Assembly: GCA_011605725.1 (NCBI GenBank)
Contig: JAAOZP010000005.1
Coordinates: 1-59,647 of the forward strand
Source of the DNA: Nitrososphaerota archaeon
GTDB lineage: Archaea > Thermoproteota > EX4484-205 > JAAOZP01
DNA: 59,647 bases
Reading direction: 5' to 3'
Shown: piece by piece, positions 17,480-44,175 of the stretch
Numbering within the stretch: position 1 is the first letter of the stretch
Layout of the letters: every line of letters starts with the position of its first letter
Notes under the pieces: generated by a model
The model's input: only the letters and a program-made list of their open reading frames with translations
Told to the model about the DNA's origin: nothing
The model's database searches: none
Program-made: the position numbers and the translations under genes

Positions 17480-20038
17480 TTAGGTCCTCTCGATATTGTA
17501 TGTTAAGACTGCTTTTCTCACGCATTCTAGGATGACACGATAATGTTCTGGGCTCACAAACACGTTTCTTCTTATGTTAACCTGCAAATTAAAATGAGCA
17601 GCTTCCTTATAAAGCCTTATTGTCATGTCGAATGGAAATAGATTATAGTTTACTTGGTAAAAGTATAGTCTTTCTTCAGGTTTGATTTTAGCATATTTCA
17701 CTTCAACTTTTATATTCGGGTTTTCAGATTCCATAACGCTTGACATTCTTCCTCGCAAGAATTCATCTATTTTTAGGATTTCATCCATTTGTATTATTAA
17801 TGGTAATTGATGCGTTATTCCTTCTCTGGTAATGCTTTCCAACGGCTTCCATTTGTATAATAAGCTGGGAGTAGTTCTCGAATATACTTTGCTAGCGGGA
17901 AAATACCCACCCAATAGGCTTACGAGAATCATGAGAGCTATAACAATTGCTTGATAGCTTAAGCCAGATTTGATGTAGGTGCTCATCGAAATAGGGAATA
18001 AAATAGCACCCATGAAGTAGCCGAGAAAACCTGCTGCCGATTCAGCCAGCGTTAATTGGATGAGAACAAGTCTTTTTAGGTCTGTTGGATTAAGGCCGAG
18101 AATAGCCAGGGTTCTAAGGTCTGACGTTCTTTCATTGAGCATTTGAAAAGTCACCATGAAGCTGAGAAGCGTTGACAGTGATATTGGAACCATAGCGTCG
18201 ATTAAGCCATGGGTGAAAAAGGCCTCGGAGTACCTTATTCCAAGCGCCGTTCCGTTTTGTATGAGCCAAACAGTATATCTCTGAGTTACCCTGTTGAGAG
18301 CTAATGATACTGCCAACTCCTCCAGCTTCGCCGGATCAACATTCTCGCCGAATAACACGGAAAGCCTCGTAATTGGAGTTTGTCCATTCCACACGCATAT
18401 CATTACGTCGTGAAAACCATAATCGCCATAGGGGTTATGAACGCTTATCTTTAGTAAATCTCCTCCGTTTAATTCTTTTACATTAGTTAACATTTCGCCG
18501 TTTAAGAGTCCGACTATCTTATAAGTCCCTAGAACTCTATAGCCTACGTGTGGAATATAACCGTAGTAGGCGACTTCATCTCCTAGATTAACGTTGAGCA
18601 ACCTTGCTTTATCGTAACATAGGAGGGCCTCGTTCTCATTAAGTGGGCACCTTCCTTCGACGAGTGCCTCAGGTATTCTATAAGTCTTATTCATAACGTC
18701 CTTGTTAAGAAATATTCTACAGGCCATTTGGACTTTGATGCTTTCATTCTTCAAGTTTGTCAAGAAAAAGTATCCGTGGGCTTTAACAGTCGCTGTTTCT
18801 ACCGCCGGCAATCCTACTACCGCGTCATCAATAAAAACTTGTGAAATACCAGTTGTTCCCGTGAGCGAGACAATCCAAGAGTAATCCTCGTCTAGAATGC
18901 CGATAGGGCTTTCAATGGTGATTGCATTAAAACTGTGCGTAACCTTTACTGTCTGCACGTTTTTCACATACGCTGTTCCTAAAGTCAACAAGAACACGAG
19001 TGAGCCTGTGACAAAAGAGCTTGCAAGAATTAGAGATGTATACCTGAAAGCCCTGCGACGGATGTCGCGGACTGCTAACATAAGGATCGAGGAAAGCCGT
19101 CTAACTCCAATAAGGTCCTTGGCTTTTTCAATTAGAAACATTGATGAAACGAAAGTTGAAACGAGTAGAAGTGCGTAAATAATACTGTTGAATAGGCGGT
19201 TCTCTGGAGTTAAACCGAAAAACAAGAGTTTTACATCGGGTGCGAAGGATATAAAGAAAAGCCAAGAGAGTGAAAATGTAACCACCGCGATGATGGCTTT
19301 TCCTAATCTGGACTCGGAAGCCAGATTACCCATAAAGATCGCAAAAAAGACGGAGATTGCATACAATATTGTAAATGAAACCGGTGCAAACGTGGTTAGT
19401 CTTGCTATCTGATTGTCGACAGTGTTTTTAACCATAAGAATCTTGCGATGATACATTATAGCAGTTAAGTAGTCACCGGCCTTAGCATAAGATATTCCTT
19501 CCTCAACCATGTTCTTTACAACTGAGGCAGTAAATTGAGGGATGAAACCTTCCTCAACCATTCCAGATATTTTCGATTTTAGCTCTGAAGCTATTTCCCA
19601 CATCCTATTAGAGTAAATCTCGTATTTAAGGTCTAGAACTAAGACTTCCCCGGGCTCAAGCCAGTAATAGTTACTATTATTTGAAAGTCTGTAAAAATCG
19701 GTCATCCACCATTGAGATTCGACTGTGACACTGAACTTAACACGTGAAAAACGATTCTCAATCATTACTGTTATGTTATCAGGTTTACTGTTTGCCGATA
19801 CCACGTAGCTCTTTTGAAACAAGGAGTCTTCAGTGAAAAAGAGCAATTGAATACTGAGGGAATCCCATTTTTTGAAAGGGTCGTCTAAATTCACAATGAC
19901 AATAGTGCTCGAGCCCTCCTCTTCCAATGAGGCTTCACCATGAACCTTACCGTTGGTTAAACAGAGGATATGGATGCTGATGAATAATAGTGCCATAATA
20001 AGCTTAGTGTTAAAGGCTTTTAGCATAGCTTTTCTCAA
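17480..20038 (-). CDS. Large FtsX/MacB-type permease
   Basis: Signal peptide, ectodomain, TM bundle, AVRDIRRRAFR, MacB-like loop, ERTSDLRTLAILGLNP, C-terminal TPSLLYKWKP domain. Confidence 0.8.
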   Translation of the reverse strand: MRKAMLKAFNTKLIMALLFISIHILCLTNGKVHGEASLEEEGSSTIVIVNLDDPFKKWDSLSIQLLFFTEDSLFQKSYVVSANSKPDNITVMIENRFSRVKFSVTVESQWWMTDFYRLSNNSNYYWLEPGEVLVLDLKYEIYSNRMWEIASELKSKISGMVEEGFIPQFTASVVKNMVEEGISYAKAGDYLTAIMYHRKILMVKNTVDNQIARLTTFAPVSFTILYAISVFFAIFMGNLASESRLGKAIIAVVTFSLSWLFFISFAPDVKLLFFGLTPENRLFNSIIYALLLVSTFVSSMFLIEKAKDLIGVRRLSSILMLAVRDIRRRAFRYTSLILASSFVTGSLVFLLTLGTAYVKNVQTVKVTHSFNAITIESPIGILDEDYSWIVSLTGTTGISQVFIDDAVVGLPAVETATVKAHGYFFLTNLKNESIKVQMACRIFLNKDVMNKTYRIPEALVEGRCPLNENEALLCYDKARLLNVNLGDEVAYYGYIPHVGYRVLGTYKIVGLLNGEMLTNVKELNGGDLLKISVHNPYGDYGFHDVMICVWNGQTPITRLSVLFGENVDPAKLEELAVSLALNRVTQRYTVWLIQNGTALGIRYSEAFFTHGLIDAMVPISLSTLLSFMVTFQMLNERTSDLRTLAILGLNPTDLKRLVLIQLTLAESAAGFLGYFMGAILFPISMSTYIKSGLSYQAIVIALMILVSLLGGYFPASKVYSRTTPSLLYKWKPLESITREGITHQLPLIIQMDEILKIDEFLRGRMSSVMESENPNIKVEVKYAKIKPEERLYFYQVNYNLFPFDMTIRLYKEAAHFNLQVNIRRNVFVSPEHYRVILECVRKAVLTYNIERT

Positions 20039-20132
20039 CAGCCTTAGTTAAAAACTTTTAACACTCAATATAAAAAATTTACCCATATTTTACCCAAAAG
20101 TTTATCAGTATTAAATTATACACTAATATACG

Positions 20133-22226
20133 GTGAAAAAGATGGAGAAAAAGGCGTTTACTCCAGGCCTAACACCAAAGTCACTCGTCATCCTCCTTGT
20201 CCTCATCGTTTTGATGAGCATAACGCAAACCTTCATATATTTCGCCACGGGAGTTGCCGATTTTGCAAACTATTGGAACGATGAGCATCGATGCGGCCTC
20301 TTGTTTAAAGGAATAGGCTGGTGGTTCCTCACGTTCGCCATATTAACAGCCGTAACCGGAAAAGTTGCCCTGAGTAAGCAGGAGTCTGTAGTTATCTTGG
20401 CGTCAAGCTTCATAATAGGGTCTGAGATAGGTCCATTGATAGCGGGTGTGATCATGTCTGTGCCTTTCGGCGCAAACGACCCTGCTGTGTCTCAATACGT
20501 AAAGTACCTGCCGGAATGGTACAGGGTCCCGCCCGAGGCTTCAGACTTCTTCCTAAGAGGGGGACCAGTTAGATGGGATCTCATAGCGGGACCGTTCGTC
20601 GGGTGGGTTGTAGTCATAATCATATGGCAACTATTCCAGTATTCCATGGCTCTAGTAGCACGGCGTACGGTGATAGATGTTGAGAAGCTTCCATTCCCAT
20701 GGGCTCAGCCGGCCAGCATATTGCTCGATCATTGCACAAGAACGGAAGACGGGAAACCCGTACTTATGAAGATGGGGAATCCAGTAATAAAGCGGATTTG
20801 GGCAGGTGTTGCAATAGGTATCATACTGTACCTTATCTTCATACCCAGGTTCTGGATACCCGACTTCCCGGTGCCGATGGACCCGGAGTACCACTGCACC
20901 TCGCCTGTTCACCCATGGCTGTTTGACAAGAGGGGTGCTTGGGTCACTACAATTCCATGGTTCCAGTTCTACCTTAGCGTGCAGCCGGAACTAGTTGCCT
21001 CAACCTTCTTCTTCCCAATGGACGTGCTCTGGACCGTCAGTGGCCTATACTTGATTCTTACAGTAATACTTCCTCCGATCGTTGCGCCTCTAGGCTGGCA
21101 GGGAAGAGACTACGGTGGAACCCCATGGTGGGTGAAAATACCTGACGCAGGGTCCTGGTGCACCATTTGGATGGACTTGTCTCAATATCCTATAAACATC
21201 CTGTTTGCCTTCTTCGCCGGCATCGTCTTCTACGGCTTGTTCAGGTTCATCTGGAACTGGAGGTCTTTCAAGGATTCCTTCATGGGCTTGCTGGGGAAAC
21301 CAGTATCCGGGGAGGAGAACGAGCCTATTCCTATCCGGTACATATGGTTGATGTTCATCGGCTTAGGAATACTGTCATTAATCATGCTGGTCGTAGGCTT
21401 TGAGATGACTGTTGGAGTAGCATTAATCACGATTCTCTTCGCCCTGATGTACTGGTATTCAAACGTTCGTCTAGTCGGCGAAGCCGGTCCATCAAACTAT
21501 TGGGCTGGAGGAGGAGAGTTCGCTAACATTGTACCCTATTTAGGCTATAAGCTGGGCCTGATGCAGGAGAAGACTATAGGTGCAGCAAGCAGCATGCTTT
21601 TTGCAAACAACTATATTGCGGGATACATATCGTCAGCATCGTTCGCCGGCTTCGGCCTCGCAGGCTACAGTATAGCAAGGGATACTGGCACGCGTCCGAG
21701 AGACATATTCATCGCTCAAGTGCTGACGATAATCATAGGGCTGGCGGTCACCTACGTTTTCGCGCTCATCTCCATATCCTCATTAGGCTGGACGGTGAAG
21801 TATAAAGGGAAACCGACTTGGACAACTCCCTGGGTTTCATGGTTCGGCGGTGTTGCGGAGAACCCCAAGGGGACAATAGATTGGTTTGAAGCACCCGCAG
21901 CCGGACAGCCATGGTATACGAACACCGCGACTGCTTGGCTGGTTGGCGGCATCCTGTTCTTCGTATTGATGGTTGCGAGAAGCCTCTTCGCATGGTGGCC
22001 ATTAAACCCTGTCGGATTCCTGATCTTCGGCCTGTATAACACGATAAAGTACTCGCCTGCCATACTTGTAACGACAATCCTTAAGTATACTGTGGTGAAA
22101 ATAGGGGGTACGCCGCTCTATGAGAAGGCTACACACTTCGCGGCCGGAGTCATAGCTGGATCCCTAATAGGAAGAGTAATACTCGGACTCATAGGCTATG
22201 TGACTGGACTACCACTCGTATACTAG
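20133..22226 (+). CDS. OPT-superfamily-like polytopic membrane protein (DUF6785/DUF6784-like)
   Basis: Many TM helices; DVEKLPFP OPT-like motif; C-terminal WWPLNPVG..K...GG..LYEK...F..G.I.G. Confidence 0.75.
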   Translation: MKKMEKKAFTPGLTPKSLVILLVLIVLMSITQTFIYFATGVADFANYWNDEHRCGLLFKGIGWWFLTFAILTAVTGKVALSKQESVVILASSFIIGSEIGPLIAGVIMSVPFGANDPAVSQYVKYLPEWYRVPPEASDFFLRGGPVRWDLIAGPFVGWVVVIIIWQLFQYSMALVARRTVIDVEKLPFPWAQPASILLDHCTRTEDGKPVLMKMGNPVIKRIWAGVAIGIILYLIFIPRFWIPDFPVPMDPEYHCTSPVHPWLFDKRGAWVTTIPWFQFYLSVQPELVASTFFFPMDVLWTVSGLYLILTVILPPIVAPLGWQGRDYGGTPWWVKIPDAGSWCTIWMDLSQYPINILFAFFAGIVFYGLFRFIWNWRSFKDSFMGLLGKPVSGEENEPIPIRYIWLMFIGLGILSLIMLVVGFEMTVGVALITILFALMYWYSNVRLVGEAGPSNYWAGGGEFANIVPYLGYKLGLMQEKTIGAASSMLFANNYIAGYISSASFAGFGLAGYSIARDTGTRPRDIFIAQVLTIIIGLAVTYVFALISISSLGWTVKYKGKPTWTTPWVSWFGGVAENPKGTIDWFEAPAAGQPWYTNTATAWLVGGILFFVLMVARSLFAWWPLNPVGFLIFGLYNTIKYSPAILVTTILKYTVVKIGGTPLYEKATHFAAGVIAGSLIGRVILGLIGYVTGLPLVY

Positions 22227-22240
22227 CGGTGCTATCAAAC

Positions 22241-22256
22241 TTTTTTTTTACTTTTT
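22241..22256 (+). terminator. Archaeal oligo-T terminator
   Basis: T9-AC-T5 shortly after the stop of the OPT-like gene, between convergent genes. Confidence 0.6.
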
Positions 22257-22954
22257 CAAGTGGTTGTCATCAAATCTGGGTAGAGTTGTTTAACTTCTTC
22301 TCTTAACACGCGAAGTATTGCGTTAAACAGACAGACTACGTCTTCAACTTTCCTGTTTACACCAGGAATTCGGTCGAACTGCGTATCCAACGCGATAAGC
22401 CAGGTTATTCCAGTCGGCTTTCTGTAGAATTCCTTAACGAGGCTGAGAAGGAAATTCTCCGATTCTGTTAAAGACGGGTATTCTGAAGGAATCGAGTGGA
22501 GCCCAATCGTTAAACCGTCTGGATTAACCCTTTTCACGAGCCTCATAACCTCTTCGTCCCGGTTTAGAATACTTGCAAGCTCGTCAGAAATCTGTAGGTC
22601 AGCAATATGGAGACGGAGCTCTTTTAAAAACGGGTTTATTTTAAAAACCCCTTTTCTCGGGAGCAATCCCTCCCATTCCAGTAAGCATTCCATGCCTTTA
22701 AGCTTCCTATAAAGGTCCTCTAAAGCCGTATTCATGCTGCTTCCTCCTAAGGCATCATGAAGAACGCTTATACGCCAAGCTGTGTCAAAAAAGCCGGCCG
22801 GCCTCCGTTGGAATATGAGATAGTTACAGGGGATTTCCTTCGGAGTAACATATATCAAACCTCCGATGATTCTCCAGTCCTTCACGTATCTCCGAAAGAG
22901 ATTAACTATGTGGGGCGTCTCGAAAACAGACTTTTTTCCTACTTTAAATTGCAC
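22256..22954 (-). CDS. Hypothetical soluble protein
   Basis: 232-aa ORF filling the gap between transport genes; no recognised motif. Confidence 0.65.
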   Translation of the reverse strand: MQFKVGKKSVFETPHIVNLFRRYVKDWRIIGGLIYVTPKEIPCNYLIFQRRPAGFFDTAWRISVLHDALGGSSMNTALEDLYRKLKGMECLLEWEGLLPRKGVFKINPFLKELRLHIADLQISDELASILNRDEEVMRLVKRVNPDGLTIGLHSIPSEYPSLTESENFLLSLVKEFYRKPTGITWLIALDTQFDRIPGVNRKVEDVVCLFNAILRVLREEVKQLYPDLMTTT

Positions 22955-23060
22955 GCTGAATATGTTTCATGAATTCGTATTTAAAGCTTCTTATTTAACT
23001 AACTGTCATCATCGAGCAAAATATTTATTAAGATGTGGTTCAGTTATCTACATACCGTAT

Positions 23061-26000
23061 ATGATACCCTTGCCAAAAAACGTGTGTTATAAATTATTAG
23101 TCACTACCTTATTCACAATATTGATTTTCGTCAATTCTTTAAATACTATGTCTGTTTTAGCAGATAGTGCAAACGGTTTTAAGAGTGTAAGGGAGATAGC
23201 GGACGCAGGTCTAATCGAGAAGCTTGTAAGCTTCATAGACTATGAAAGGGTCGAGAGCCACATTAGGAAGCTCTCCTCCATCTCAAGGTTCACCGGATAT
23301 CCGGGTTGTCTCGAAGCTGCGGATTATATTAAGAGTCAACTCGAAAGCTACGGTTTGAAACCGTTCTTCCAAAACTATAGTGTTATTGTTCCGGTTGACG
23401 GAGGCGCTACACTAACTACTTTAGACCAGAATCCTCTGACATTAAAAATATACCCTATGCTTCCAAACCTTGCCTGTCCTCCAGCTACTCCAGGCTTGGA
23501 GGGACGTTTAGTCTACGCTGGAAAAGGAACTCTTAAGGAGCTCAATGGGCTTCCTTTGAATGGAAGTGTAGTTATGCTTGATTTTAATTCGGGATACAAC
23601 TGGCTTGACGCTGCACAGTTCGGAGCAAAAGCATTCCTGTTTATAGAACCGGATGAAACTAAGAGTTATGAAGCGGAGTCTAAGCGGATATATGCTCCGG
23701 TGAACATTCCTAGGTTCTACATTTTAAGGGAAGAGGCTGAAAAACTGCTGCAAAGACTTAATGAGGCTGGCCCTCAAGGCCTATCGGTGTTTATTCAGTC
23801 TAAGATGACTTGGGAAACTAAGGAGGCACAAAACGTCATCGCGCTTGTAAAAGGGCAGTTGAATGAAACAATCGCTATTTTCTCTTTCTACGACGCGTTT
23901 TCTCCAGTTCCTTTTCTTGCGTATGATGCTGATGCTGCCTCTGGAGTTGCAATCTGGCTGGAGATAGCCAGGTATTTCAGCATTAATAAGCCTCTTAGGA
24001 ATGTTTTATTCGTATCTTTCTCCGGACATTTTCAGACTCTGGCAGGTGGGAGAGCTTTTGTAGATGAATACATCTTCGGTGAAAAACCAGATCCAGTATT
24101 GGGCTACAGGTATGGGAGAAATATAAAACTGGCCTTAGGACTGGATATATCGACGGATAGCCCGTCAGCCTGCATAGCCTGGGGAACATCCGCCGGTAAT
24201 TCTTTGATTCAGATAGGGAGGGCAGGATACGCTTACATCAGGGATGCTGTCAAGCCGATTTTCTACGAGGAGGCTCCTGGAGTACAAACACCCCGTGATG
24301 AAGAACTTACTAGCATACTTCAGGAGCCAATAAATAAAGGAAGCCTAGTATATTATGTGAATAGGATAATGGGAGAGAAGACCGGTTATCTATACATGAT
24401 AGGCGACAGAATTTCTCAAGTCAATGATTACATACCCATGTATCCGTTAGCCCGTACACCTTACATGAGGCTTGAGAGCCAGTTGATTGTGCAGGTTGGA
24501 GGCATAGGCTTGACTGTTCACACTTCAGTGGCGGATAGGATCCATTGGGGCCTACCCATAAGTAATTTGAATAAGGTCAATATGCGAAATCTTAGGCCTC
24601 AGGCCGAATTCAGCCTTTGTTTAGCATACCTCTACATCTGGCTTGATCCGCAAGTATTAAACCAGTACGTCAACATACCCGGGTGGACGAAGTGGGATGG
24701 TACAGGCTTAGGATGGCCAATTTTTGAGGGTAAAATATTAGAATTCGATAAGTCATTAGGAAAGTATGTTGAGGTGCCGAATGCATTAATAATGTTTTTC
24801 TCCTGGCGTACACCATACTTCGAAATTGTTTTAAAGAGCGATGAAAAAGGATCATATCGGGCAACAGGATTTCAGGGAGCAGTAGGCGGGTCTCCGGTAA
24901 CCAGTGGTGGAGGCTTCGTTTACTACGCGTTTGCTTTCGTCATAAACGAGACGAACGGAAATGTAGAGTATGCTCCAGACTCTGGTGTGTTTGGGGCTAT
25001 GTACGGCCAGTCTTTTCAATACTGGCTAAGGAGTATGGGAAAGGAAGTTGAACAGTTAAACATACCTGTATTTAAATGCGGCTCCATAGTCCTTCATGGT
25101 CTTCTAGATCCGAGACTGATGAACGTCAGAACTTCTTTCAAAACAAGGATTAACGATGCTTTCTCACATGCTGAGCTCATCGCCTTCTCAGACCCGTCAA
25201 TATTCACTGACTGCTATTTGAGAATGATGCAGGCGACAATAGCAACGGGGACACCTGCTGCAGAAAGCCCAAGTATAACAATGGTAGTATTCGTCCCACC
25301 TAGAACTCCAATCGAAGTGCTTCTATACATAGGTCCTACGCTCGTTGGAGCTTTCAATAACGGAGGGAATGGGTTTACGGTTGAACCTGGACGAGTTATC
25401 CGTAGGTTTGCTCCCATGCAGATCGCGTCTGATATCCTATTGCTAAACGAGAGGCGGCTTAATACTCTTCACACTCATGGAGTCTTCAGTATAATGAATG
25501 TGTCCGAAGCCCGTCAATCGGAGGCGTTGAGGTATCTTGAAATAGCATCCAATAGTCTCTCAAACCTGAACTATGAAGAATGCTCCTACTATATTTATAA
25601 GTCTTGGAACTATGTTGCAGAAAGTTATACGATGATTAAGGACATGTATCTTGATACCATAAATTCTGTTGCTTTCATCTCAGTACTCAGCCTTCTTTTT
25701 TCCATACTTTTAGAGAGGCTTATATTTTCCACAGGCGGTTTCAAGAGGGCTTTCATCATTATCTTCATATTCATTTCTATCACAACATTATGCTCAGTGC
25801 TTCACCCTGGTTACCTCCTCGCTTCAAACATAGGTTTAGAGCTGCTGGGCATTAGTGTAATATTGATGCTCATACCTGCAATCATGCTATTACTCAGCAT
25901 GGCAAGCCGCCAGTTATCTCAAATAAGGGAAGAGCGTAGAGGTATTGAAGCACCGGCAGTGGATAAGTTATCTGCCTTCATTCTCTCCCTTTCATATGGA

Positions 26001-27698
26001 GCGTCCAGTATGAGAAAACGTCCATTCAGAGTATCGCTAACATTATCGTCAATAATTGCAATAGCTTTTGCAATAAGTCTACTAACGAGCATAAGTTCTT
26101 ATTCTTGGACTAACATTATCCCGGAGAGCGTTGAAGCTGAGCTTATACCATATAACGGCTACATGTTAAGAACAACGGATTGGTCTCTTGCACAACAAGT
26201 GCCACAAGGCCTGTCCGTCACGCTCGTAAAGTATCTGGAGTCCCAGTTCCACGATGCGGTTGTAGCTCCCAGAGTTTTATCTCCGATTGTTTTCAACGTG
26301 CCTTGGTATAACCTGTTGTGGGTTGATGGCGTGCCAAAGAATATTACCAGTTCTCCGGTTCGCGCAATAATGGGCCTTTCTGTGGCTGAATCAAAGCTGG
26401 TGAACAATTGGAATAATTCTATCATGTCTGGGAGGTGGTTGGAGAGTGATGAAGGATTTGAATGCTTAGTCAGTTCTGACATAGCAACATACCTGGACAT
26501 AAAATTAAACCAAACAATAAGGTGGTCTGGTACTGAATTCAGAGTGGTGGGGATTTTTGATCCAAGTAAAATCGGGCGGGATATTGACGGGGAACCAATG
26601 ACGCCTAGAGATTTCCAAGCAATAATGCAAGCTGGCTCTGTGTCAAAAATTCTTCCACATGTGCCGCGTTTGAATAGCTCGTTCATCATAGTTCCGTGGA
26701 AGACGCTCTGGAAACTAGGTGGAGAAATCATGAGCATAGCGGTTAAACCTTCTAAGGTGGAGCCGGAGACTGCTGCCGCTTTGGCGCTTGAGACAGGTGC
26801 TCATGTATTCACCGTCGCGACTATTAATGGAAGACCAACTGTTCTCAAATATTCTAAAACTAACGTCATCACCACATCGGGCTTCGACTATCTTTTAATA
26901 CCCCTGGTAATAGGAACGCTTATCATAGCTAACACGATGCTGGGCGGAATATACGAGCGACGAAAAGACATATTCACTTTTTCAGTTGTCGGTTTGTCGT
27001 TAACACAAATTTTCTTCATGTTCATGGCTGAGGCTATCGTTTATGGAACCATAGGGGCATTCCTAGGGTATTTGGTTGCAATGAGCGTCGCGTTCTTTTC
27101 CTCTTATTTCCAGTGGGGTGTAGTCTTCAACTTTACTTCGGGTTACGTGATTTTAGCCCTCGCAATAGCGATGCTGGCGATACTCGTCGCGATGAGTCTT
27201 CCGTTTTTAAGCGTAGCCCAGATTGCTACTCCTTCTCTAGAAAGGAAGTGGAAGGTTCCTGCTCCAAAGGGTGATCACTGGGATGTTAGGTTTCCTTTCT
27301 TAATTGCAGAGGAGGAGTTCAATGGATTCCTGTTGTTTATGAAGGAATACATTGAAAACCAGAGCGGAGATGTGCTTGGTATTTATAATTTGAGAAGCAT
27401 AGAGGTAAAGACTGTTGAGGTTCCCAGTGGTGGCCAGGAGCGTGCATTACGGGCTTTAATGGATCTTCTTCCACCGGAGCTCGGCATATCTCAGGAAGTT
27501 TTAGTTGCAGGCACATGGGATCCGCAAAGGACCAGGTATAGTCTGCATGTTGTTACAAACCGGATTTCCGGGACTCCTGCAGACTGGATGAGAAGAAACA
27601 CGCTGGTATTGAACTTGCTCAGAAAACGTTTCCTCCTCTGGAAGAGCCTCACACCTAAAGAGAAATCTGCTTATTTAGAACGTGCACATGCGTTATGA
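23061..27698 (+). CDS. Giant FtsX/MacB-type permease with N-terminal PA and degenerate M28 peptidase-like ectodomain
   Basis: SRFTGYPG, GRLVYAGKG (PA), YDAFS...ADAASGVA..LEIAR (M28-like), MRKRPFRVSLT, YERRKDIFTFSVVGLS, ATPSLERKWK. ATG 23061 lies about 30 nt after TATA ATATTTATTA; the track start 22866 overlaps the divergent gene. Confidence 0.85.
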   Translation: MIPLPKNVCYKLLVTTLFTILIFVNSLNTMSVLADSANGFKSVREIADAGLIEKLVSFIDYERVESHIRKLSSISRFTGYPGCLEAADYIKSQLESYGLKPFFQNYSVIVPVDGGATLTTLDQNPLTLKIYPMLPNLACPPATPGLEGRLVYAGKGTLKELNGLPLNGSVVMLDFNSGYNWLDAAQFGAKAFLFIEPDETKSYEAESKRIYAPVNIPRFYILREEAEKLLQRLNEAGPQGLSVFIQSKMTWETKEAQNVIALVKGQLNETIAIFSFYDAFSPVPFLAYDADAASGVAIWLEIARYFSINKPLRNVLFVSFSGHFQTLAGGRAFVDEYIFGEKPDPVLGYRYGRNIKLALGLDISTDSPSACIAWGTSAGNSLIQIGRAGYAYIRDAVKPIFYEEAPGVQTPRDEELTSILQEPINKGSLVYYVNRIMGEKTGYLYMIGDRISQVNDYIPMYPLARTPYMRLESQLIVQVGGIGLTVHTSVADRIHWGLPISNLNKVNMRNLRPQAEFSLCLAYLYIWLDPQVLNQYVNIPGWTKWDGTGLGWPIFEGKILEFDKSLGKYVEVPNALIMFFSWRTPYFEIVLKSDEKGSYRATGFQGAVGGSPVTSGGGFVYYAFAFVINETNGNVEYAPDSGVFGAMYGQSFQYWLRSMGKEVEQLNIPVFKCGSIVLHGLLDPRLMNVRTSFKTRINDAFSHAELIAFSDPSIFTDCYLRMMQATIATGTPAAESPSITMVVFVPPRTPIEVLLYIGPTLVGAFNNGGNGFTVEPGRVIRRFAPMQIASDILLLNERRLNTLHTHGVFSIMNVSEARQSEALRYLEIASNSLSNLNYEECSYYIYKSWNYVAESYTMIKDMYLDTINSVAFISVLSLLFSILLERLIFSTGGFKRAFIIIFIFISITTLCSVLHPGYLLASNIGLELLGISVILMLIPAIMLLLSMASRQLSQIREERRGIEAPAVDKLSAFILSLSYGASSMRKRPFRVSLTLSSIIAIAFAISLLTSISSYSWTNIIPESVEAELIPYNGYMLRTTDWSLAQQVPQGLSVTLVKYLESQFHDAVVAPRVLSPIVFNVPWYNLLWVDGVPKNITSSPVRAIMGLSVAESKLVNNWNNSIMSGRWLESDEGFECLVSSDIATYLDIKLNQTIRWSGTEFRVVGIFDPSKIGRDIDGEPMTPRDFQAIMQAGSVSKILPHVPRLNSSFIIVPWKTLWKLGGEIMSIAVKPSKVEPETAAALALETGAHVFTVATINGRPTVLKYSKTNVITTSGFDYLLIPLVIGTLIIANTMLGGIYERRKDIFTFSVVGLSLTQIFFMFMAEAIVYGTIGAFLGYLVAMSVAFFSSYFQWGVVFNFTSGYVILALAIAMLAILVAMSLPFLSVAQIATPSLERKWKVPAPKGDHWDVRFPFLIAEEEFNGFLLFMKEYIENQSGDVLGIYNLRSIEVKTVEVPSGGQERALRALMDLLPPELGISQEVLVAGTWDPQRTRYSLHVVTNRISGTPADWMRRNTLVLNLLRKRFLLWKSLTPKEKSAYLERAHAL

Positions 27699-27752
27699 GA
27701 AGCAGCTTTGGACTGATAAAGTATATATATAGCTTTACTAAGATAATGTTTT

Positions 27753-29663
27753 ATGGCTGTTGAAGAGAGATCCTCGACAGAGCCGGAATTTAAAGGGGGT
27801 TTTTCGAGGATAACTATCATTACAATTCTCTACAGTGCTCTAGTTCTCATCCCTATCGTGATATTCTCATCTCTCTATAGCGGAGCCAGTATCGCCGGGG
27901 CAGCCCCGTACATAATGATTATCATAATCACTCAAATGTCGGTTTTGCTCGGAAGAAAGCCTTTCACCAGGCAGGAAGTTTTAGTTGCCTATGTAGCTAC
28001 GTCAGTATCTGCTACTTACACCGGTATGGGAGTTTACGCTATTTTTAACACCTATATGCGTTCAGCTCCAGGTATTAAAATTGCCCCTTACATACCTGAA
28101 TGGGCTGCTGTACAGTTAACATCCCCCGCATATCTTCAACGAACATTACTGCATCCAGACTGGATTCCTTTCATCATAGTCAATATGGGCACTACAGTGC
28201 TGTGGTACATAGCCAACATGTCGTTGGGACTGATGGCCGGGCAGCTCTACTATGATATCGAAAAGCTCCCGTTCCCTATGGCTTTAGTAGGTGTTGAAGG
28301 GGTGATAACTCTTTCTGAGAGAGAAGAGAAAAGAATAAGATACTTTACTTTGTTTCTAATACCGGGTGCTATTTTATCGGCTTTGATCTATGCGCTGCCA
28401 ATGGTTAGCGCGGCCATCACGCGTCGCACAGGCATAACGCTAATCCCTGTTCCTTGGAGTGATTTAACTATTTTTATAGACGCAGTCCTACCGGGTAGTG
28501 TATTCGGCATCTCTACTGATCCATTAGCCTTCGCTATGGGATTTGTAATACCGTTAGAAGTATGCGTAGCAATGCTTATCGGAGCAATCTCGGTGAGCAT
28601 AGCGGGCAATTCTATTCTTTACGGTTTCGGCCTCTTGCCTAGAGTCTATAGAGGAATGAGCATCGCAATGAATTATACATATGCTTACTTGGATTTTTGG
28701 GCAAGCCCAATGATAGGACTGGCCATTGCTGCTGCACTAACGCCTCTCCTCATTCATCGCGATACTCTATTGGGACTGTTAAGAAGTATGAAGGGTCTTA
28801 CAGCATCTCAGAAGTCAATGGGGTATGTTTCACCTTTACGTCTAATCACACTGTACGTTGCATGTAGCTTTGGAACCGTGCTAGTAACCCTATACCTTTG
28901 TCCCGGTTTCATACCTTACGCTCCTATAGCGATCATCATGGGTGTTGCATGGCCTTTCATATTCGTAATAGCTCAGGCAAGGGGAATGGCCGTATCCGGC
29001 GTGCCGCTAAACATTCCGTACATCTGGGAAGGGATTCTCGGCATGATTCCGTATAACGGGGTGGACATATGGTTCGCACCTCTTTACACCTCCAGAATGG
29101 TAGGCATAGGGTCGCCCACTGCGGAATGGGCAGGCACGTATGTCATGGCTAAACTAACCCAAACTAAAATTTCCGACATAATTAAAGCATGGTTTATAGC
29201 TCTTCCTATTACGTGGACTATGGTATGGATGTTTACTAGTGCTTTCTGGACACTGGCTCCCATCCCCTCAATGTTTTATCCGTTTACTGCTCAAACATGG
29301 CCTATGAATGCTGCTATAACTGATCTCTACATGTCTAAAACGTTCACGACAGCGTTAAACCCGTTATTGATTGGTGGTGCTGCACTTATAGGTGTTGTCA
29401 TGTATATCGTGTCAAGCCTTCTCAAATTCCCGAACTTCCTGATGGGATTTGTATTAGGAGCCAGTGGATACATTCCTGGGTCAGTATCTATATTTATCGG
29501 TGCCCTTTTGAACCGGTTTTTACTAAAGAGATTTCTAGGGGAAGAATGGAACAAATATAAAGCTGTTGCTGTCGCTGGCCTAACTTGCGGTGAAGGCATT
29601 ATACTAGGTTTATCCGCACTATTTACAGTAATATCAAATTCTCTTATGACCATTCCTTACTAG
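27753..29663 (+). CDS. OPT-superfamily-like polytopic membrane protein
   Basis: Many TM helices; TRQE, DIEKLPFPMA, APIPSMFYP, AGLTCGEG; related to 20133..22226. Confidence 0.78.
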   Translation: MAVEERSSTEPEFKGGFSRITIITILYSALVLIPIVIFSSLYSGASIAGAAPYIMIIIITQMSVLLGRKPFTRQEVLVAYVATSVSATYTGMGVYAIFNTYMRSAPGIKIAPYIPEWAAVQLTSPAYLQRTLLHPDWIPFIIVNMGTTVLWYIANMSLGLMAGQLYYDIEKLPFPMALVGVEGVITLSEREEKRIRYFTLFLIPGAILSALIYALPMVSAAITRRTGITLIPVPWSDLTIFIDAVLPGSVFGISTDPLAFAMGFVIPLEVCVAMLIGAISVSIAGNSILYGFGLLPRVYRGMSIAMNYTYAYLDFWASPMIGLAIAAALTPLLIHRDTLLGLLRSMKGLTASQKSMGYVSPLRLITLYVACSFGTVLVTLYLCPGFIPYAPIAIIMGVAWPFIFVIAQARGMAVSGVPLNIPYIWEGILGMIPYNGVDIWFAPLYTSRMVGIGSPTAEWAGTYVMAKLTQTKISDIIKAWFIALPITWTMVWMFTSAFWTLAPIPSMFYPFTAQTWPMNAAITDLYMSKTFTTALNPLLIGGAALIGVVMYIVSSLLKFPNFLMGFVLGASGYIPGSVSIFIGALLNRFLLKRFLGEEWNKYKAVAVAGLTCGEGIILGLSALFTVISNSLMTIPY

Positions 29664-29697: not shown

Positions 29698-32600
29698 TCA
29701 AATAATTCTTATTGAAACGTAAACTGGACATTGTCCTGCCATTTTCCTTAAGAATACTTCCTTTCCAGCTAACCTTAAAACCTTTCTAAGCTCTACCACG
29801 GCTTCCCTATTCATCCCTAATCCAAGATAGGCTATTATCTTCCTGCAGCGTGCTTCCATAAGCTTTTTATCGTAATTCAAGGCGTTGAAATATTCCTCAG
29901 GAATTTCTCTCTTTAAGCTCGCTATTTCTTCCTCTCTTTTCATCGCTTCCTTCAACATGTCTTTAAACAATTCTAAAGCCTCCCTCTTTCTTCCAAGCAT
30001 CTTGAGGGCGAGACCCTTATAGTAGGCTTCGTCAATATTGAAAAACTTTTGAGTAAGAATACTTTTCCACATCTTCCTTGCCTTCTTCTTCTCCCCCATG
30101 AGAAGATAACACTGGCCAGCCCAGTACCTCTGTTTAGCCTCATGCCTATGCGGAGCATAAGGTGCCCCAACACCCAGATTCCTCGGGTATGTTAAAGCGT
30201 TAAGGAAGTCTTTTAAAGCCTCTTCATACCTTCTTCTGTTCACCCTCTCCAACCCTCTCCTCACATGGGCCTCTACGAACATCTCCCAGTAGCCATAGTA
30301 TCCTTCAGCAGGGGTGAAAGTGTTCTCCTCGAGTATTTTAATCGCTTCATCGTTTTTCCCCGTGTCGATGTATGCTGAGGACAATGCTGCCAGTATCGAG
30401 TCTTTCTTAATTCTGGTCCTCGCTTCTTCTAAGGTTTTAACAGCCTTTTCAACGAGTTTTGTCCAACGGCATACATCATAGTATTCAAGGTATAGCCTGT
30501 AATTGTCTTGATCAATGTCAATCGCTTTCTCATATTCCTTTAACGCTTTCTCATAATCCCTGTACAATCTGTTGTAAGCAAAACCAAGGTTCCTATGTAG
30601 GATTGAATACTTAAAACCGCTTTCCTCAGCTTTTTCCCATTCCCCTATCGCCTCTTCAAATCTTCCGAGCTGAAACAAGAGGTTTCCGAGATAATACCTT
30701 GCCTTAGGGCTCCCGGTGTTTTTGATGACGCTTCTAAGTATTTCCTCCTCAATCAACCTGTGTGGAAACACGCGGTCGGGATTCCTCAAATCCCCAGCCT
30801 GATAATGCTTTTTCATCTCCTCTGTTTGTTGAAGCCTCTCACAAACGAAGCCTAGGTAATAGTGGACCATAGGGCCATTAAGCCCCTTCGACACACCAAT
30901 CTCCAGGACTTTCTTGGCATCTTCATAAAAATTGATGCTGATGTATTCCGTAGCTGCTTCAAGGAGCTTCTGTTCTTCAGATAAAACGATCCTTTCGAAT
31001 TCAGGCTTGCCCTCTTCCGAGCAGAGCATGAGCTCAGAAAGCAACGGGTAGTAAAGCGGAAAGGCTTCCAAAGCCTTTTTAACGATATCTAAAGCTTCCT
31101 TAACCTTCTTCTGCTTCCTTAAGACTGCGGCGAGGAGGAATGTGCACTTAAAATCCTTCGAATCCCTCTCAACCACCTCCCTAAGCACCTCCTCCGCTTT
31201 CTCATACTCTCCATTTCTGATTTTTACGACTGATATCCAATACGAGGATTGCGAGAAGAACTTGGTTCTAGCCTTCCAGAGCTCTATTTCCGAGTTGAAC
31301 TCGTCTCCCAGCTTAAGGTAGCATAGCCCCAAATAATAATGCGCTTCACTGTAATCCGGGTCCCTTTTCAACGCTTTTTCGAGAAGCTTAACAGCCTCAG
31401 CGTACATGCCCCTCCGATAATAGATAGTGGCTAAGGAACACAATGCTTTCGAGAAACCCTCATCGACCTTTAATGCTTGTTTATACTTCAATTCTGCAAG
31501 CAATGGATTACCCATTCTTTCCTCCAGTTCCCCATCAATCCAAAGCTCTTCAGCGGTCTTTTTAGCATTGACGACGAGTTCGCTTGGACGGTAGTATACG
31601 GATTCGTCAATCTTCGTCTTATAATCCCTGCAATCCCAAGCTATGATCTCCACGCCTTTTTCATCAATGGCTTCAACCTTCACCTTTTTATCCTTGGATT
31701 CAAACTCCTTAACGAAAGGATCCGTGGGCGCCAAGTTGAGTTTCTCCTCGACAACCTGCCCACCAAGATGGATTCTGATAACGGAATTCGGGAAAACCTT
31801 CGTCACGTGAATCCCCACAGTTACTTTGAACTTTCCATTTTCAGGTTTGATGTCAACATATACCACGGCATCCTTGTTCGCATAGGATATTCCTCCTATC
31901 TTCGGAACGGGATACCACCATTCCTCCCATTCATCGAAATAATGAGGATCAACAAAGCCAACTATGCTCTGCGTCCTATACTTGCCGGATTGAAGCTCAA
32001 TGTATGGCACCCCTTTATCTGAAAGTATTGGCGCCCAGAAAAGCCCGTCTTCACTAGTTCCCCATGTGAACCTTTTCTTCCCAGGAATCTTGAAATGATT
32101 CGCGTACTGCACTACTCCGTAATGCATATTGTAATCGTAGTATCCGAAGAAATCCTCCTCAGAATCTATTATAAAGGCGTCGACGGCGAACTTGCAATTC
32201 TTATACCAGCTGACGTCAACACCGTCTCTTGTCACTGGAAACGTATCCTCTGTCAAGTGTTTGCCTGGTATGAAGACCCTGCTGCCCTCGGTAACCGGCT
32301 CAGCAGTATTCGTCCAGAAGTAGTATTTGGTTCGCAACACATCGTTGTTAAAAATTTTAACGGATGTTTCTAGAAAATGTCTACCCGGCCTCAGGGTGAG
32401 GCCTACCAAATAATACATGTTGGTGATGAAGTTAATGTTCCCTATGTAAACAGTTACGCCACCATCCTCCAACTCCTTAACTTTCCAGTCTACTGGAGAA
32501 AAATTGTCTGGAGTATGATGACCCCTGTCCAAACTGTTGAACTCTACTCCGTTAGCAATCCATGCACCTCTTAAAGCTATGTTGGCTGGCCTTATTATTT

Positions 32601-32880: not shown

Positions 32881-33153
32881 ATTAATTAAGTTTTGGGTAC
32901 TCTATTTTTTATTCGCTATTAGCTGAGCACTACCTTTTGGATCGGAACACTAGTCGAGAAGATATACTTACATAAAGCAGGCCCTATCCTTTCCAGCTTT
33001 TCAATTCATCCCTTGATCAATTTATAGGTCCCTAGCCTAATCGCATTCATCTAACCACCTTAACTTGCTAAGGGAATAAATTTAACGAGAACTTTCAGTG
33101 CGCACAAACATAGAAGCCGCGGAAAAACATAATAGGTAGAAGGATGTAATAAG

Positions 33154-37085: not shown

Positions 37086-37160
37086 AATGTTAAAAAAACA
37101 TTAGCTATATAAAAACTTTATAGTTGCAAATAGATGCACGCTGCGCGCTTAGACTATTTA

Positions 37161-41219: not shown

Positions 41220-41264
41220 TGGAACGCTTAAATCCATGCTGCTGCCTACCCTCTGCGAACCGGA

Positions 41265-44157: not shown

Positions 44158-44175
44158 AAGCCTTTGATGTCAGAT

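What the first reader, a model, noticed from the sequence alone, without database searches (positions are those of the whole stretch)
17480..29663. Uncharacterised membrane system: two giant FtsX/MacB-type permeases plus two OPT-like transporters
Seen: 852-aa and about 1545-aa permeases, each with a large ectodomain, extra TM bundle, MacB-like loop, FtsX motif and a shared C-terminal domain (TPSLLYKWKP / TPSLERKWKV). Each is paired with a 640-700-aa polytopic protein carrying D[VI]EKLPFP. Known: FtsX/MacB permeases do export or mechanotransmission with a LolD-type ATPase, while OPT proteins are secondary importers. I know of no characterised system combining them, though I recall similar unannotated clusters in other heterotrophs. 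Inference: a heteromeric capture-and-import machine for peptides, glycopeptides or oligosaccharides, feeding the adjacent cytoplasmic hydrolases like an archaeal SusCD analogue.
Basis: partly seen in the sequence, partly recalled or inferred. Interest (0 to 1): 0.85.

Follow-up and report, generated by a model that had tools for sequence, protein, structure and literature searches.

The report
Archaeal FtsX-OPT nutrient uptake cassette
A hot-spring archaeon carries five copies of an unstudied three-gene membrane cassette (a giant MacB/FtsX-type protein flanked by two oligopeptide-transporter-like proteins), each copy sits beside sugar-degrading enzymes, and its apparently missing ATP motor is most likely a single shared gene set encoded elsewhere in the genome.

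Summary
All four genes, their domains and their shared motifs are present as described.

The gene pairing needs revising. The conserved unit is a three-gene cassette:
- A: a DUF6785/DUF6784 protein (P0002).
- B: a giant PA/M28-like FtsX permease with a C-terminal domain, here called CTD (P0003).
- C: an OPT protein (P0004).

This genome (Brockarchaeota relative) has five such cassettes. Of 54 related loci with enough flank, 47 have C next to B. P0001 is an optional shorter B paralog.

All five own cassettes lie beside glycan enzymes (GH38, GH130, GH3, GH18-like, glycosylasparaginase-like). The Staphylothermus marinus copy (Smar_1398-1400) lies between two GH57 genes. This points to oligosaccharide or glycopeptide uptake rather than peptide uptake.

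"No ATPase" holds only in cis. A single-copy minimal FtsX (D) and two MacB-type ATPases (E1, E2) co-occur with B across 201 Thermoproteota genomes (48 both, 3 B only, 7 D only, 143 neither). They sit next to the cassette in S. marinus and in two bacterial loci. I read them as a shared energising module.

No publication describes this system. This scan has met the family before on other genomes. Physical assembly, transport direction and substrate are inferred, not shown.

The parts
17480..20038 (-). P0001, 852 aa: a shorter B-family paralog ('b'). It has a signal anchor, an ectodomain of about 190 aa, extra TM helices, a MacB-like extracytoplasmic domain, FtsX TM2-4 and a weak C-terminal domain (17477-17872).
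   Evidence: (E 3e-13 to P0003 over about 560 aa), and 70 (CTD profile E 8e-22). Conserved in close relatives (L016; an 853-aa frame in G087). Similar extra 'b' genes occur inside cassettes L036, L040, L048, L060 and L073.
20133..22226 (+). A = P0002, 697 aa: polytopic DUF6785/DUF6784 protein, a distant OPT-superfamily member. DVEKLPFP motif at 20676-20699.
   Evidence: DUF6784 54.5 bits. (an ortholog carries PF20581 and PF20580). (hhalign of family A against family C: probability 99.8%, E 7.6e-28, full length)..
22256..22954 (-). P0005, 232 aa: small predicted cytoplasmic protein encoded antisense between A and B. No Pfam family. Possible accessory protein or regulator.
   Evidence: A 229-aa gene lies in the same place and orientation in L007. 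A 228-aa ORF lies in the same position in the own C7 cassette, with weak similarity (E 2e-4).
23061..27698 (+). B = P0003, about 1545 aa from Met66 (ORF frame opens at 22866): the giant type VII ABC (MacB/FtsX)-like permease.
23232..24059 (+). PA/M28 aminopeptidase-like ectodomain of B with a remodelled active site.
   Evidence: Peptidase_M28 25.7 bits. (2EK8 aminopeptidase E 4e-9; nicalin E 4e-4; the catalytic Glu-Glu aligns with His-Phe). (G-H-[WYF]-Q in 68 of 74 family members; the Asp of HxD in 74 of 74).
25686..25940 (+). Three extra TM helices of B, preceding the canonical MacB-type TM1.
   Evidence: helices 2-14, 19-40 and 50-86 of the model, which starts at residue 940..
26049..26873 (+). 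MacB-like extracytoplasmic core domain of B, between TM1 and TM2.
   Evidence: MacB_PCD 34 bits. (the periplasmic domains 3ftj, 5udf and 5lj8 are matched).
26898..27221 (+). FtsX TM2-TM4 of B, including the conserved coupling-helix motif (E-R-x-x-[ED]-I ... G).
   Evidence: FtsX 40.9 bits. (E425/R426 nearly invariant and G437 invariant across 51 sequences). (short helix 427-436 between TM2 and TM3).
27228..27695 (+). Cytoplasmic C-terminal domain (CTD) of B, starting at TPSLERKWK. It is an alpha+beta sandwich (strand-helix-four strands-two helices) and is the hallmark of the family.
   Evidence: (pLDDT 92). The fold has no clear relative.
27753..29663 (+). C = P0004, 636 aa: OPT-family polytopic protein. 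DIEKLPFP motif at 28254-28277.
   Evidence: OPT 32 bits, profile positions 8-620 of 623. (paralogs directly after every giant B gene)..
29698..48546 (.). Adjacent predicted cytoplasmic glycan and glycoconjugate enzymes, the likely consumers of the imported substrate: two DUF5107-TPR proteins, a ceramidase-like protein, GH38 alpha-mannosidase, Gfo/Idh/MocA, GATase1-like, a GH5-like protein and an 851-aa unknown.
   Evidence: Pfam. (no N-terminal hydrophobic segments). DUF5107-TPR is also next to A in L007.

Best explanation
The locus encodes one copy of a conserved, uncharacterised multi-component membrane system. Its specific part is the cassette A-B-C. B is a MacB/FtsX-type (type VII ABC) mechanotransducer. 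It has one FtsX module, three extra TM helices, a huge ectodomain built on a catalytically remodelled PA/M28 fold, and a cytoplasmic C-terminal domain. A and C are two anciently diverged OPT-superfamily polytopic proteins.

I propose the following mechanism:
1. B pairs in the membrane with a minimal 4-TM FtsX protein that lacks an ectodomain (D, contig C10).
2. The pair is driven by two MacB-type ATPases: E1, next to D on C10, and E2, an orphan on C11.
3. D, E1 and E2 are single-copy and serve all five cassettes, much as group II ECF transporters share one energising module.
4. ATP-driven movements of the B ectodomain capture oligosaccharides or glycopeptides (N-glycan, mannoside or alpha-glucan type, differing per cassette).
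5. The captured substrate is handed to, or gates, the OPT-fold conduits A and C, which carry it into the cytoplasm for the adjacent intracellular glycoside hydrolases.

Shown: the domains, cassette conservation, co-diversification, glycan-enzyme neighbourhood, and the phyletic and (in some genomes) physical linkage of D/E to the cassette.

Inferred: the physical complex, the B/D heterodimer, the direction of transport and the substrate.
For: 1. Cassette.
- Five A-B-C sets occur in this genome, with tight or overlapping gene junctions.
- In 54 loci from other genomes with at least 2.5 kb of flank, C lies within 300 bp of B in 47, and both A and C are present in 43.
- A, B and C distance matrices correlate over 46 cassettes (r 0.93-0.95, P<=5e-4; r 0.44-0.55 even among deep paralogs).

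2. B is type VII ABC-like.
- Pfam FtsX and MacB_PCD.
- Foldseek matches MacB, LolCDE, YbbAP, HrtBA, BceAB and YtrEF.
- The coupling-helix motif is kept.

3. Motor in trans.
- No ABC ATPase lies within about 9 kb of any own cassette.
- Bacterial loci L063 and L078 read (A-)B-C-FtsX(345 aa)-ATPase-ATPase.
- S. marinus has B-A-C-GH57-183 aa, then a convergent D-E1-E2 operon.
- The own genome has D+E1 on C10. E1 is 62-66% identical to the bacterial cassette ATPases and 71-94% identical to the archaeal E1 copies next to D.
- The own genome also has an orphan E2 ortholog on C11. Both ATPases have intact Walker A, Walker B and signature motifs.
- Across 201 Thermoproteota genomes: both B and D in 48, B only in 3 (two of these genomes are 70% complete), D only in 7, neither in 143. 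By family: 12 both, 0 B only, 2 D only.
- Within family f7, only the Staphylothermus genus has either gene, and it has both.
- D appears once per genome in the listed matches, while B reaches 10 copies.

4. Glycan uptake.
- Neighbours of the five own cassettes include GH38 (twice), GH130, GHL10/GH18-like, Asparaginase_2 (apparently in one operon with A-B-C), GH3, GH42-like, CBM4_9, GH5-like and DUF5107.
- Brockarchaeota average about 27 CAZymes per genome (PMC8065059), so five out of five is far above chance.
- The S. marinus cassette is flanked by two GH57 genes.
- The neighbour tally over 42 other loci includes GH10, GH130, GH42, TrmB and Gfo/Idh/MocA, and no peptidase family among the 25 commonest families.
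- The window's enzymes lack signal peptides, and the window holds no binding-protein-dependent sugar ABC importer.
Against: - No direct evidence of a complex.
- D/E are unlinked from the cassette in most archaea, even in single-cassette genomes (for example G098, about 690 kb apart).
- Related genomes are not independent samples, so phyletic co-occurrence could partly reflect shared lineage history.
- Seven genomes have D without B, including G071 (92% complete). One 96%-complete genome (G101) has B without a D-type hit.
- All characterised type VII ABC systems extrude, extract or signal at the outer face. None drives import.
- Characterised OPT proteins work alone as proton symporters.
- The neighbour tally outside this genome is heterogeneous. 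URO-D-like proteins are the commonest neighbour (9 of 129), so a glycan substrate is not universal.
- The function of the CTD is unknown.
Confidence: 0.45

Rival explanations
1. An ATPase-independent heteromeric machine made of two FtsX-OPT pairs, in which the FtsX-type proteins act as passive receptors or are driven by the proton-coupled OPT partner.
For: No ATPase lies in cis in the window or near any own cassette. An ATPase lies within 3 kb of B in only 6 of 54 loci. B carries a family-specific cytoplasmic CTD exactly where MacB-type proteins contact their ATPase.
Against: The conserved unit is A-B-C, not pairs. B keeps the canonical coupling-helix motif. D/E1/E2 co-occur with B and are linked to the cassette in S. 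marinus and in bacteria.
Confidence: 0.15
2. Co-regulated but separate functions. A and C are ordinary stand-alone proton-coupled OPT importers. B (with D/E) is an independent FtsEX-like module that controls or anchors an extracellular activity on the same polymer. There is no physical A/B/C complex.
For: Characterised OPT proteins act alone, and FtsEX-type systems regulate extracellular hydrolases (established knowledge of these families). No B-OPT fusion was found. A few loci have B without A or C (L059, L071, L074).
Against: B-C junctions are very tight, often overlapping, across phyla. The three families co-diversify at the level of deep paralogs. A and C of this type were seen here almost only next to B: the own genome has five of each plus a single extra OPT-like gene.
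Confidence: 0.2
3. Export or surface assembly. A and C move a glycan, lipid-linked oligosaccharide or peptide outward, and B processes or attaches it at the cell surface (envelope or S-layer maintenance).
For: All studied type VII ABC systems act outward or at the outer leaflet (MacB, LolCDE, HrtBA, BceAB, YbbAP; for the fold relationship). The huge ectodomain could serve as an assembly platform.
Against: The neighbours are catabolic and cytoplasmic: GH38, GH130 phosphorylase, GH57, GH3, a glycosylasparaginase-like protein and sugar regulators. No glycosyltransferase family is among the 25 commonest neighbour families. Having up to 10 paralogous cassettes per genome looks like substrate diversification, as in polysaccharide utilisation loci.
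Confidence: 0.1
4. Peptide uptake. This is a classical oligopeptide (OPT) importer whose peptidase-like receptor binds or trims peptides.
For: OPT family assignment of C. M28/PA-like ectodomain. S. marinus ferments peptides, and its genome paper calls Smar_1400 a peptide transporter (PMC2678158).
Against: The M28 catalytic Glu-Glu is replaced in 68 of 74 members. Gene neighbours are glycan enzymes, and no peptidase family is among the 25 commonest neighbour families. Glycopeptides would reconcile the two readings: a glycosylasparaginase-like gene precedes the C13 cassette.
Confidence: 0.1

Closest known systems
Type VII ABC transporters / mechanotransmission family (MacB of MacAB-TolC, LolCDE, FtsEX, HrtBA, BceAB, YbbAP, YtrEF)
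   Same: B has the FtsX 4-TM module, the extracytoplasmic core domain between TM1 and TM2, and the coupling-helix motif. D is a minimal FtsX. E1 and E2 are MacB/LolD-type ATPases. An asymmetric permease pair with a single large ectodomain recalls LolC/LolE and BceB.
   Different: B has an added ectodomain of about 900 aa with a PA/M28-like pseudo-peptidase, three extra TM helices, and a 155-aa cytoplasmic CTD found only in this family. It is obligately adjacent to two OPT-fold proteins. In most archaea the ATPases and partner permease are encoded elsewhere and are apparently shared among several paralogs. The context points to import, which no type VII system is known to do.
OPT/YSL transporters (Pfam PF03169; from memory TC 2.A.67)
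   Same: C matches the full OPT profile above the Pfam cut-off. A is homologous to C over its full length. The EKLPFP motif resembles, from memory, the conserved 'KL.[FY]PSG' motif of OPT/YSL proteins.
   Different: Both are very divergent: no PDB chain was found by sequence or profile. They always come as two distinct paralogs next to a giant FtsX-type protein. Characterised OPTs are stand-alone proton symporters for peptides or metal chelates, whereas the context here is glycan catabolism.
PA-domain M28 aminopeptidases and their pseudo-enzyme relatives (Aneurinibacillus aminopeptidase 2EK8; nicalin; transferrin receptor and GCPII from memory)
   Same: Sequence similarity over the PA and M28 parts. 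As in nicalin and the transferrin receptor, the catalytic residues are replaced.
   Different: The replacement is a family-specific, conserved G-H-[WYF]-Q with an invariant Asp. This suggests a retained site with a different job. The domain is fused to an ABC-type permease.
SusC/SusD polysaccharide utilisation loci of Bacteroidota
   Same: Organisation only. Multiple paralogous transporter cassettes per genome each sit beside a different set of glycoside hydrolases. Uptake of oligomers would be energised from a shared remote source (TonB there, D/E1/E2 here).
   Different: There is no homology, no outer membrane and no TonB-dependent barrel. The energy source would be ATP rather than proton-motive force.
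Group II ECF transporters (shared EcfAA'T module with many S components)
   Same: One single-copy energising module (a membrane subunit plus two ATPases) is encoded apart from many substrate-specific membrane components.
   Different: The folds and families are unrelated, and the sharing here is inferred rather than shown.

Membership tests
Type VII ABC (MacB/FtsX) permease superfamily | FtsX 4-TM domain (Pfam PF02687) | tested here: met
   P0003 scores 40.9 bits against a 25.5 cut-off. P0001 scores 20.5 bits, below the cut-off, but is homologous to P0003 at E 3e-13. D scores 65.9 bits.
Type VII ABC (MacB/FtsX) permease superfamily | Extracytoplasmic core domain between TM1 and TM2, and overall MacB-like fold | tested here: met
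   MacB_PCD 34 bits against a 27 cut-off. Foldseek matches MacB, LolCDE, YbbAP, HrtBA and BceAB at probability 1.0 and E down to 7e-12. TM-scores are low (about 0.2) because the domains are oriented differently.
Type VII ABC (MacB/FtsX) permease superfamily | Cognate ABC ATPase (FtsE/LolD/MacB-NBD type) | tested here: inconclusive
   None in the window or within about 9 kb of any own cassette. The candidates E1 (C10) and E2 (C11) are supported by bacterial and S. marinus linkage and by the phyletic profile. Binding has not been shown.
Type VII ABC (MacB/FtsX) permease superfamily | Cytoplasmic coupling helix between TM2 and TM3 | tested here: met
   E425/R426 are nearly invariant and G437 is invariant in 51 sequences. 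The model has a short helix at 427-436.
OPT transporter family (PF03169) | Full-length match to the OPT profile above the gathering score | tested here: met
   P0004: 32.0 bits against 25.8, profile positions 8-620 of 623. P0002 does not match OPT directly, but it matches DUF6784, and the A family aligns with the C family at hhalign probability 99.8%.
OPT transporter family (PF03169) | Proton-coupled uptake of oligopeptides or metal chelates as a stand-alone carrier | not testable with these tools
   This needs transport assays. The genomic context (always beside B, next to glycan enzymes) argues for a different mode and substrate.
M28 metallo-aminopeptidases | M28/PA sequence and fold similarity | tested here: met
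   Peptidase_M28 25.7 bits against 21.3. 2EK8 at E 4e-9.
M28 metallo-aminopeptidases | Catalytic Glu, adjacent metal-ligand Glu and first His ligand | tested here: not met
   Glu-Glu aligns with His-Phe in P0003, and the first His is Tyr. The Glu-Glu position is G-H-[WYF]-Q in 68 of 74 family members. B is therefore not filed as a peptidase.
SusCD-type polysaccharide utilisation locus | TonB-dependent outer-membrane barrel plus SusD lipoprotein | tested here: not met
   No such Pfam families occur among the window or cassette genes. The organism is an archaeon, with no outer membrane. Only the locus logic is shared.
A-B-C(-D-E) cassette family (undescribed; defined here and in earlier notes of this scan) | Giant B with a TPSLERKWK-type CTD, directly beside an OPT-like C, with a DUF6785/6784 A nearby | tested here: met
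   The window reads A 20133-22226, B 23061-27698, C 27753-29663. The CTD profile hits at E 6e-47. The same order occurs in own contigs C3, C5 and C13.

The most novel reading that the evidence does not exclude
This is a new class of primary-active importer. An asymmetric type VII ABC motor (B/D with E1/E2) would use mechanotransmission through a giant pseudo-peptidase ectodomain to load or gate two OPT-fold conduits (A/C). ATP hydrolysis would then drive uptake through secondary-transporter-fold proteins. In archaea one motor would be shared by up to ten substrate-specific cassettes, which would act as the archaeal equivalent of polysaccharide utilisation loci.
Probability: 0.35. Interest if true: 0.92.

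Novelty: new variant of a known kind. Interest (0 to 1): 0.8.

Why it matters
How heterotrophic archaea (Bathyarchaeia, Brockarchaeota, Thermofilaceae, Desulfurococcaceae) take up complex glycans is largely unknown. Their many cytoplasmic glycoside hydrolases imply that oligomers are imported.

- **Candidate gene set.** This family has at least 1343 sequence clusters. It reaches 10 copies per genome and lies beside CAZymes, so it offers a concrete marker for archaeal sugar-utilisation loci.
- **Mechanism.** No known system couples a MacB-type mechanotransducer to OPT-fold proteins. A motor shared in trans would explain why these giant permeases look like orphans.
- **Testability.** The system is present in the cultured Staphylothermus marinus (Smar_1398-1400 plus the adjacent D-E1-E2 operon) and in several bacterial phyla.
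- **Annotation.** 'Peptide transporter' and 'FtsX-like permease' are probably misleading labels for these genes.

Tried and rejected
- **Complex prediction.** The B C-terminal half (alignment A3) with D (alignment A8) scored 0.24 and 0.22 against a mark of 0.32. This is no verdict and counts neither for nor against binding. B with C or A could not be tested because the chains exceed the 1000-residue limit.
- **Rosetta-stone search for B-OPT fusions.** P0004 and a 45-sequence C alignment were searched against longer proteins and found none. This is weak evidence. The 'sometimes fused' remark in an earlier scan note was not reproduced.
- **CTD fold.** Foldseek against the PDB found nothing at E<=1e-3, only weak SRPBCC/Bet v 1-like rows. 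VIA-align gave a best Z of 8.6 (KA1 domain, METTL16 VCR, phosphoglucomutase domain 4, SRPBCC), which is at the noise level the tool states. No function was inferred.
- **OPT structures.** Neither phmmer with P0004 nor a profile of family C found any PDB chain.
- **Literature.** No paper mentions DUF6784 or DUF6785. The Brockarchaeota paper does not mention these transporters. The S. marinus genome paper lists only Smar_1400, as an OPT peptide transporter.
- **Related-loci search.** The first attempt with alignment A1 failed for lack of a conserved stretch. It was repeated with A2.
- **Retracted pseudogene reading.** I briefly read the D gene of G071 (a genome lacking B) as a pseudogene because of stops reported. 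Direct ORF calling shows an intact 215-aa gene, so that argument is withdrawn.
- **Homolog search with P0002.** The word-based search found only three close relatives. The wider picture came from genome and locus searches.

Full report
**What is in the window.** Four large membrane-protein genes occupy 17480-29663.
- P0001: 852 aa, minus strand.
- P0002: 697 aa.
- P0003: a 1610-aa frame. The hydrophobic anchor begins at Met66, giving about 1545 aa.
- P0004: 636 aa.
- P0005: a 232-aa ORF lying antisense between P0002 and P0003.

Pfam assigns FtsX, MacB_PCD and Peptidase_M28 to P0003, a sub-threshold FtsX hit to P0001, OPT over the full profile to P0004, and DUF6784 to P0002. P0001 and P0003 align over about 560 residues (E 3e-13). 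The aligned region includes the extra TM helices and the start of a shared C-terminal domain (CTD).

**The conserved unit.** I searched the four proteins against six-frame ORFs of the organism's own assembly (2.23 Mb, 20 contigs; the window is contig C2). This showed the same three-gene order on contigs C3, C5 and C13, with junctions of a few bases or overlaps, and a rearranged copy on C7. The order is A (DUF6784-type, about 690 aa), then B (giant FtsX-type, about 1500 aa), then C (OPT-type, about 640 aa).

The unit is therefore P0002-P0003-P0004. P0001 is an extra, shorter member of the B family, transcribed divergently from A. A profile comparison shows that A and C are homologous over their full lengths (hhalign probability 99.8%, E 7.6e-28). 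Both are therefore OPT-superfamily proteins.

**Relatives elsewhere.** A scan of one genome per prokaryotic species with the FtsX+CTD region returned 80 loci.
- The closest (88% identity) is a Candidatus Brockarchaeota MAG.
- Most of the others are from Bathyarchaeia, Brockarchaeota, Thermofilaceae, Desulfurococcaceae, other Thermoproteota and Nitrososphaerota.
- A few are from bacteria: Chthoniobacterales, Victivallales, Sumerlaeota and Planctomycetota.

I classified the ORFs of these loci with HMMs built from the five own cassettes. Of 54 loci with at least 2.5 kb on both sides of B:
- 47 have C within 300 bp of B;
- 50 have C somewhere in the locus;
- 43 have both A and C;
- 4 have neither.

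Pairwise distances of A, B and C over 46 cassettes correlate at r 0.93-0.95 (permutation P<=5e-4). Among pairs with B p-distance above 0.6 the correlation is still r 0.44-0.55. The three genes have therefore diversified together as cassettes. Relatedness between the genomes inflates such correlations, so I treat this as supportive only.

A profile of the CTD alone finds 1566 representatives (1343 at E<=1e-10) among 1.84 billion. In the 150 best hits listed it lies at the C-terminus, and the full-length ones are about 1430-1570 aa.

**Anatomy of B.**
- *Ectodomain.* The N-terminal ectodomain resembles PA-domain M28 aminopeptidases (2EK8, E 4e-9) and the pseudo-peptidase nicalin. The catalytic Glu-Glu aligns with His-Phe. 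Across 74 family members that position is G-H-[WYF]-Q in 68, while the Asp of the HxD motif is invariant. The site is remodelled yet conserved, so it is not a canonical peptidase.
- *C-terminal half.* The AlphaFold model (51-sequence alignment, pLDDT 83) shows three extra TM helices, an amphipathic helix, TM1, the extracytoplasmic core domain, TM2, a short coupling helix, TM3, TM4 and the CTD. It matches MacB, LolCDE, YbbAP, HrtBA, BceAB and YtrEF. The E-R...G coupling-helix motif is nearly invariant.
- *CTD.* It folds with high confidence (pLDDT 92) into a strand-helix-four-strand-two-helix sandwich. It has no convincing structural relative.

**The missing ATPase.** None of about 40 ABC ATPase genes in the genome lies within about 9 kb of a cassette. 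The ATPase at 12736-14463 belongs to an ECF importer.

The bacterial loci give a different picture. They read (A-)B-C, then a 345-aa FtsX permease, then two ABC ATPases (L063 and L078). The best matches to these genes in the own genome are on contig C10:
- D, a 231-aa FtsX protein with four TM helices and almost no ectodomain;
- E1, a 244-aa ATPase 7 bp downstream of D, 62-66% identical to the bacterial cassette ATPases.

I then profiled 201 Thermoproteota genomes, drawn by the tool, for the CTD and for D. D-type hits separate cleanly from ordinary FtsX proteins of about 400 aa:

| Genomes | Count | Notes |
|---|---|---|
| Both B and D | 48 | |
| B only | 3 | two are 70% complete |
| D only | 7 | |
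| Neither | 143 | |

By family the split is 12 with both, 0 with B only and 2 with D only. Within family f7, only one genus has either gene, and it has both. D appears once per genome in the listed matches, whereas B reaches ten copies.

That f7 genus is Staphylothermus. B, A and C are Smar_1398, Smar_1399 and Smar_1400. About 3 kb downstream lies a convergent operon of D followed by two ATPases. Reciprocal BLAST separates two ATPase orthogroups:
- E1 is next to D, and is 71-94% identical among the archaeal genomes checked.
- E2 in the window's genome is an orphan on contig C11 with no FtsX-type permease gene on that contig.

Both have intact Walker A, Walker B and signature motifs.

My reading is that an asymmetric B/D permease pair, driven by E1/E2, forms the motor. 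In multi-cassette archaea one D-E1-E2 set would serve all cassettes. This rests on linkage and co-occurrence, not on a demonstrated interaction.

**Substrate and direction.** Every own cassette has glycan enzymes as immediate neighbours:

| Cassette | Neighbouring genes |
|---|---|
| C2 (window) | two DUF5107-TPR proteins, ceramidase-like, GH38, Gfo/Idh/MocA, GATase1-like, GH5-like |
| C3 | a GHL10/GH18-like gene directly after C |
| C5 | GH130 directly after C, and an HTH regulator before A |
| C13 | an Asparaginase_2 (glycosylasparaginase family) gene directly before A; GH38 and ceramidase-like after C |
| C7 | GH3, GH42-like and a CBM4_9 protein |

Brockarchaeota average about 27 CAZymes per genome (PMC8065059), so five of five is well beyond chance. 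GH38, GH130, the glycosylasparaginase-like gene and the GH18-like gene together point to N-glycan or mannoside breakdown.

In S. marinus the cassette lies between two GH57 genes. A tally of 129 neighbours from 42 other loci is more mixed. It includes URO-D-like proteins (9, in 7 loci), Gfo/Idh/MocA (4), GH10, GH130, GH42 and TrmB sugar regulators. No peptidase family is among the 25 commonest families.

The window's enzymes lack signal sequences, and the window has no binding-protein-dependent sugar importer. Uptake of oligosaccharides or glycopeptides is therefore the most economical reading. It remains an inference.

**Comparison with what is known.**
- B is a member of the MacB/FtsX superfamily by sequence and fold. 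All studied members act outward or at the outer leaflet, have their ATPase in cis, and have no OPT partner.
- C meets the Pfam definition of OPT, and A is its distant homolog. Studied OPTs are stand-alone proton symporters.
- The ectodomain fails the M28 catalytic test.
- The SusCD comparison holds only for locus logic.
- I found no publication on DUF6784/DUF6785 or on this gene combination. The S. marinus genome paper lists Smar_1400 simply as a peptide transporter.

**Earlier notes in this scan.** The scan has met the family repeatedly on other genomes. Some notes report ATPase-less giant FtsX plus OPT pairs. Others report bacterial six-gene operons with an asymmetric FtsX pair and an ATPase. 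Others report orphan minimal FtsX/ATPase pairs in archaea. The present analysis links these three kinds of note. It also adds the multi-copy glycan-locus organisation and the cultured carrier.

**Verdict.** It is wrong on the gene pairing and probably wrong on the absence of an ATPase. Physical assembly, the role of the CTD, the substrate and the direction of transport remain to be shown.

Noticed in passing
own genome contig C10:57025-58462 (L096:5025-6462) and C11:54087-54869 (L098:4087-4869): A minimal FtsX with no ectodomain (231 aa) lies directly before a MacB-type ATPase (244 aa). A second, orphan MacB-type ATPase (260 aa) has no FtsX-type permease gene on its contig. These are the orthologs of the D-E1-E2 operon that sits beside the cassette in Staphylothermus marinus.
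   Followed up: yes
window 22256-22954 (-); L011:7699-8385 (+); L007:10875-11564 (-): A cytoplasmic ORF of about 230 aa with no known family lies antisense between A and B in the window, in the own C7 cassette (weak similarity, E 2e-4) and in a 65%-identity relative. It may be an accessory protein or a regulator.
   Followed up: partly
own genome C3:148594-153969 (L012): A 1791-aa FtsX-type protein carries a weak CTD match (E 2.5e-11) and is conserved at 1785-1820 aa across the genus. My BLAST found no OPT-like gene beside it. It looks like a separate branch of the B family.
   Followed up: no
loci L021, L027, L032, L039, L045, L049, L075: URO-D-family (uroporphyrinogen decarboxylase / methyltransferase-like) genes are the commonest single neighbour of the cassette outside this genome (9 proteins in 7 of 42 loci). 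The glycan-uptake reading does not explain this.
   Followed up: partly
L059, L071, L074 (Nitrososphaerota / 'Archaeon HR02'): Here B occurs without A or C. It is followed by two conserved ORFs (339 and 296 aa) with no Pfam family and preceded by a Gfo/Idh/MocA gene. This may be a variant system with different partners.
   Followed up: partly
own genome C7:132953-142434 (L011) compared with L043 and L067 (Thermofilaceae): The A, B and C genes of the own C7 cassette are each closest to Thermofilaceae cassettes (p-distances 0.34-0.49), not to the other own paralogs (about 0.7). This suggests either an old subfamily or transfer of the whole cassette.
   Followed up: no
window 29698-37085 and L007:5488-8661: Two DUF5107-TPR paralogs of about 1060 aa follow the cassette. 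In the relative L007 a DUF5107-TPR gene sits divergently next to A, in the place taken by P0001 in the window. The association is recurrent and the function is unknown.
   Followed up: partly
window 16001-18000: GC content drops to 36%, against about 44% for the window, around the 3' end of P0001 and a 165-aa single-TM ORF (16880-17377).
   Followed up: no
window 2635-4610: A BNR_2 sialidase-like gene and a CBM9-like gene lie at the start of the window. They add to the glycan theme but are separated from the cassette by an ArsA/ABC-2 module, cobW, cstA and an ECF importer.
   Followed up: partly
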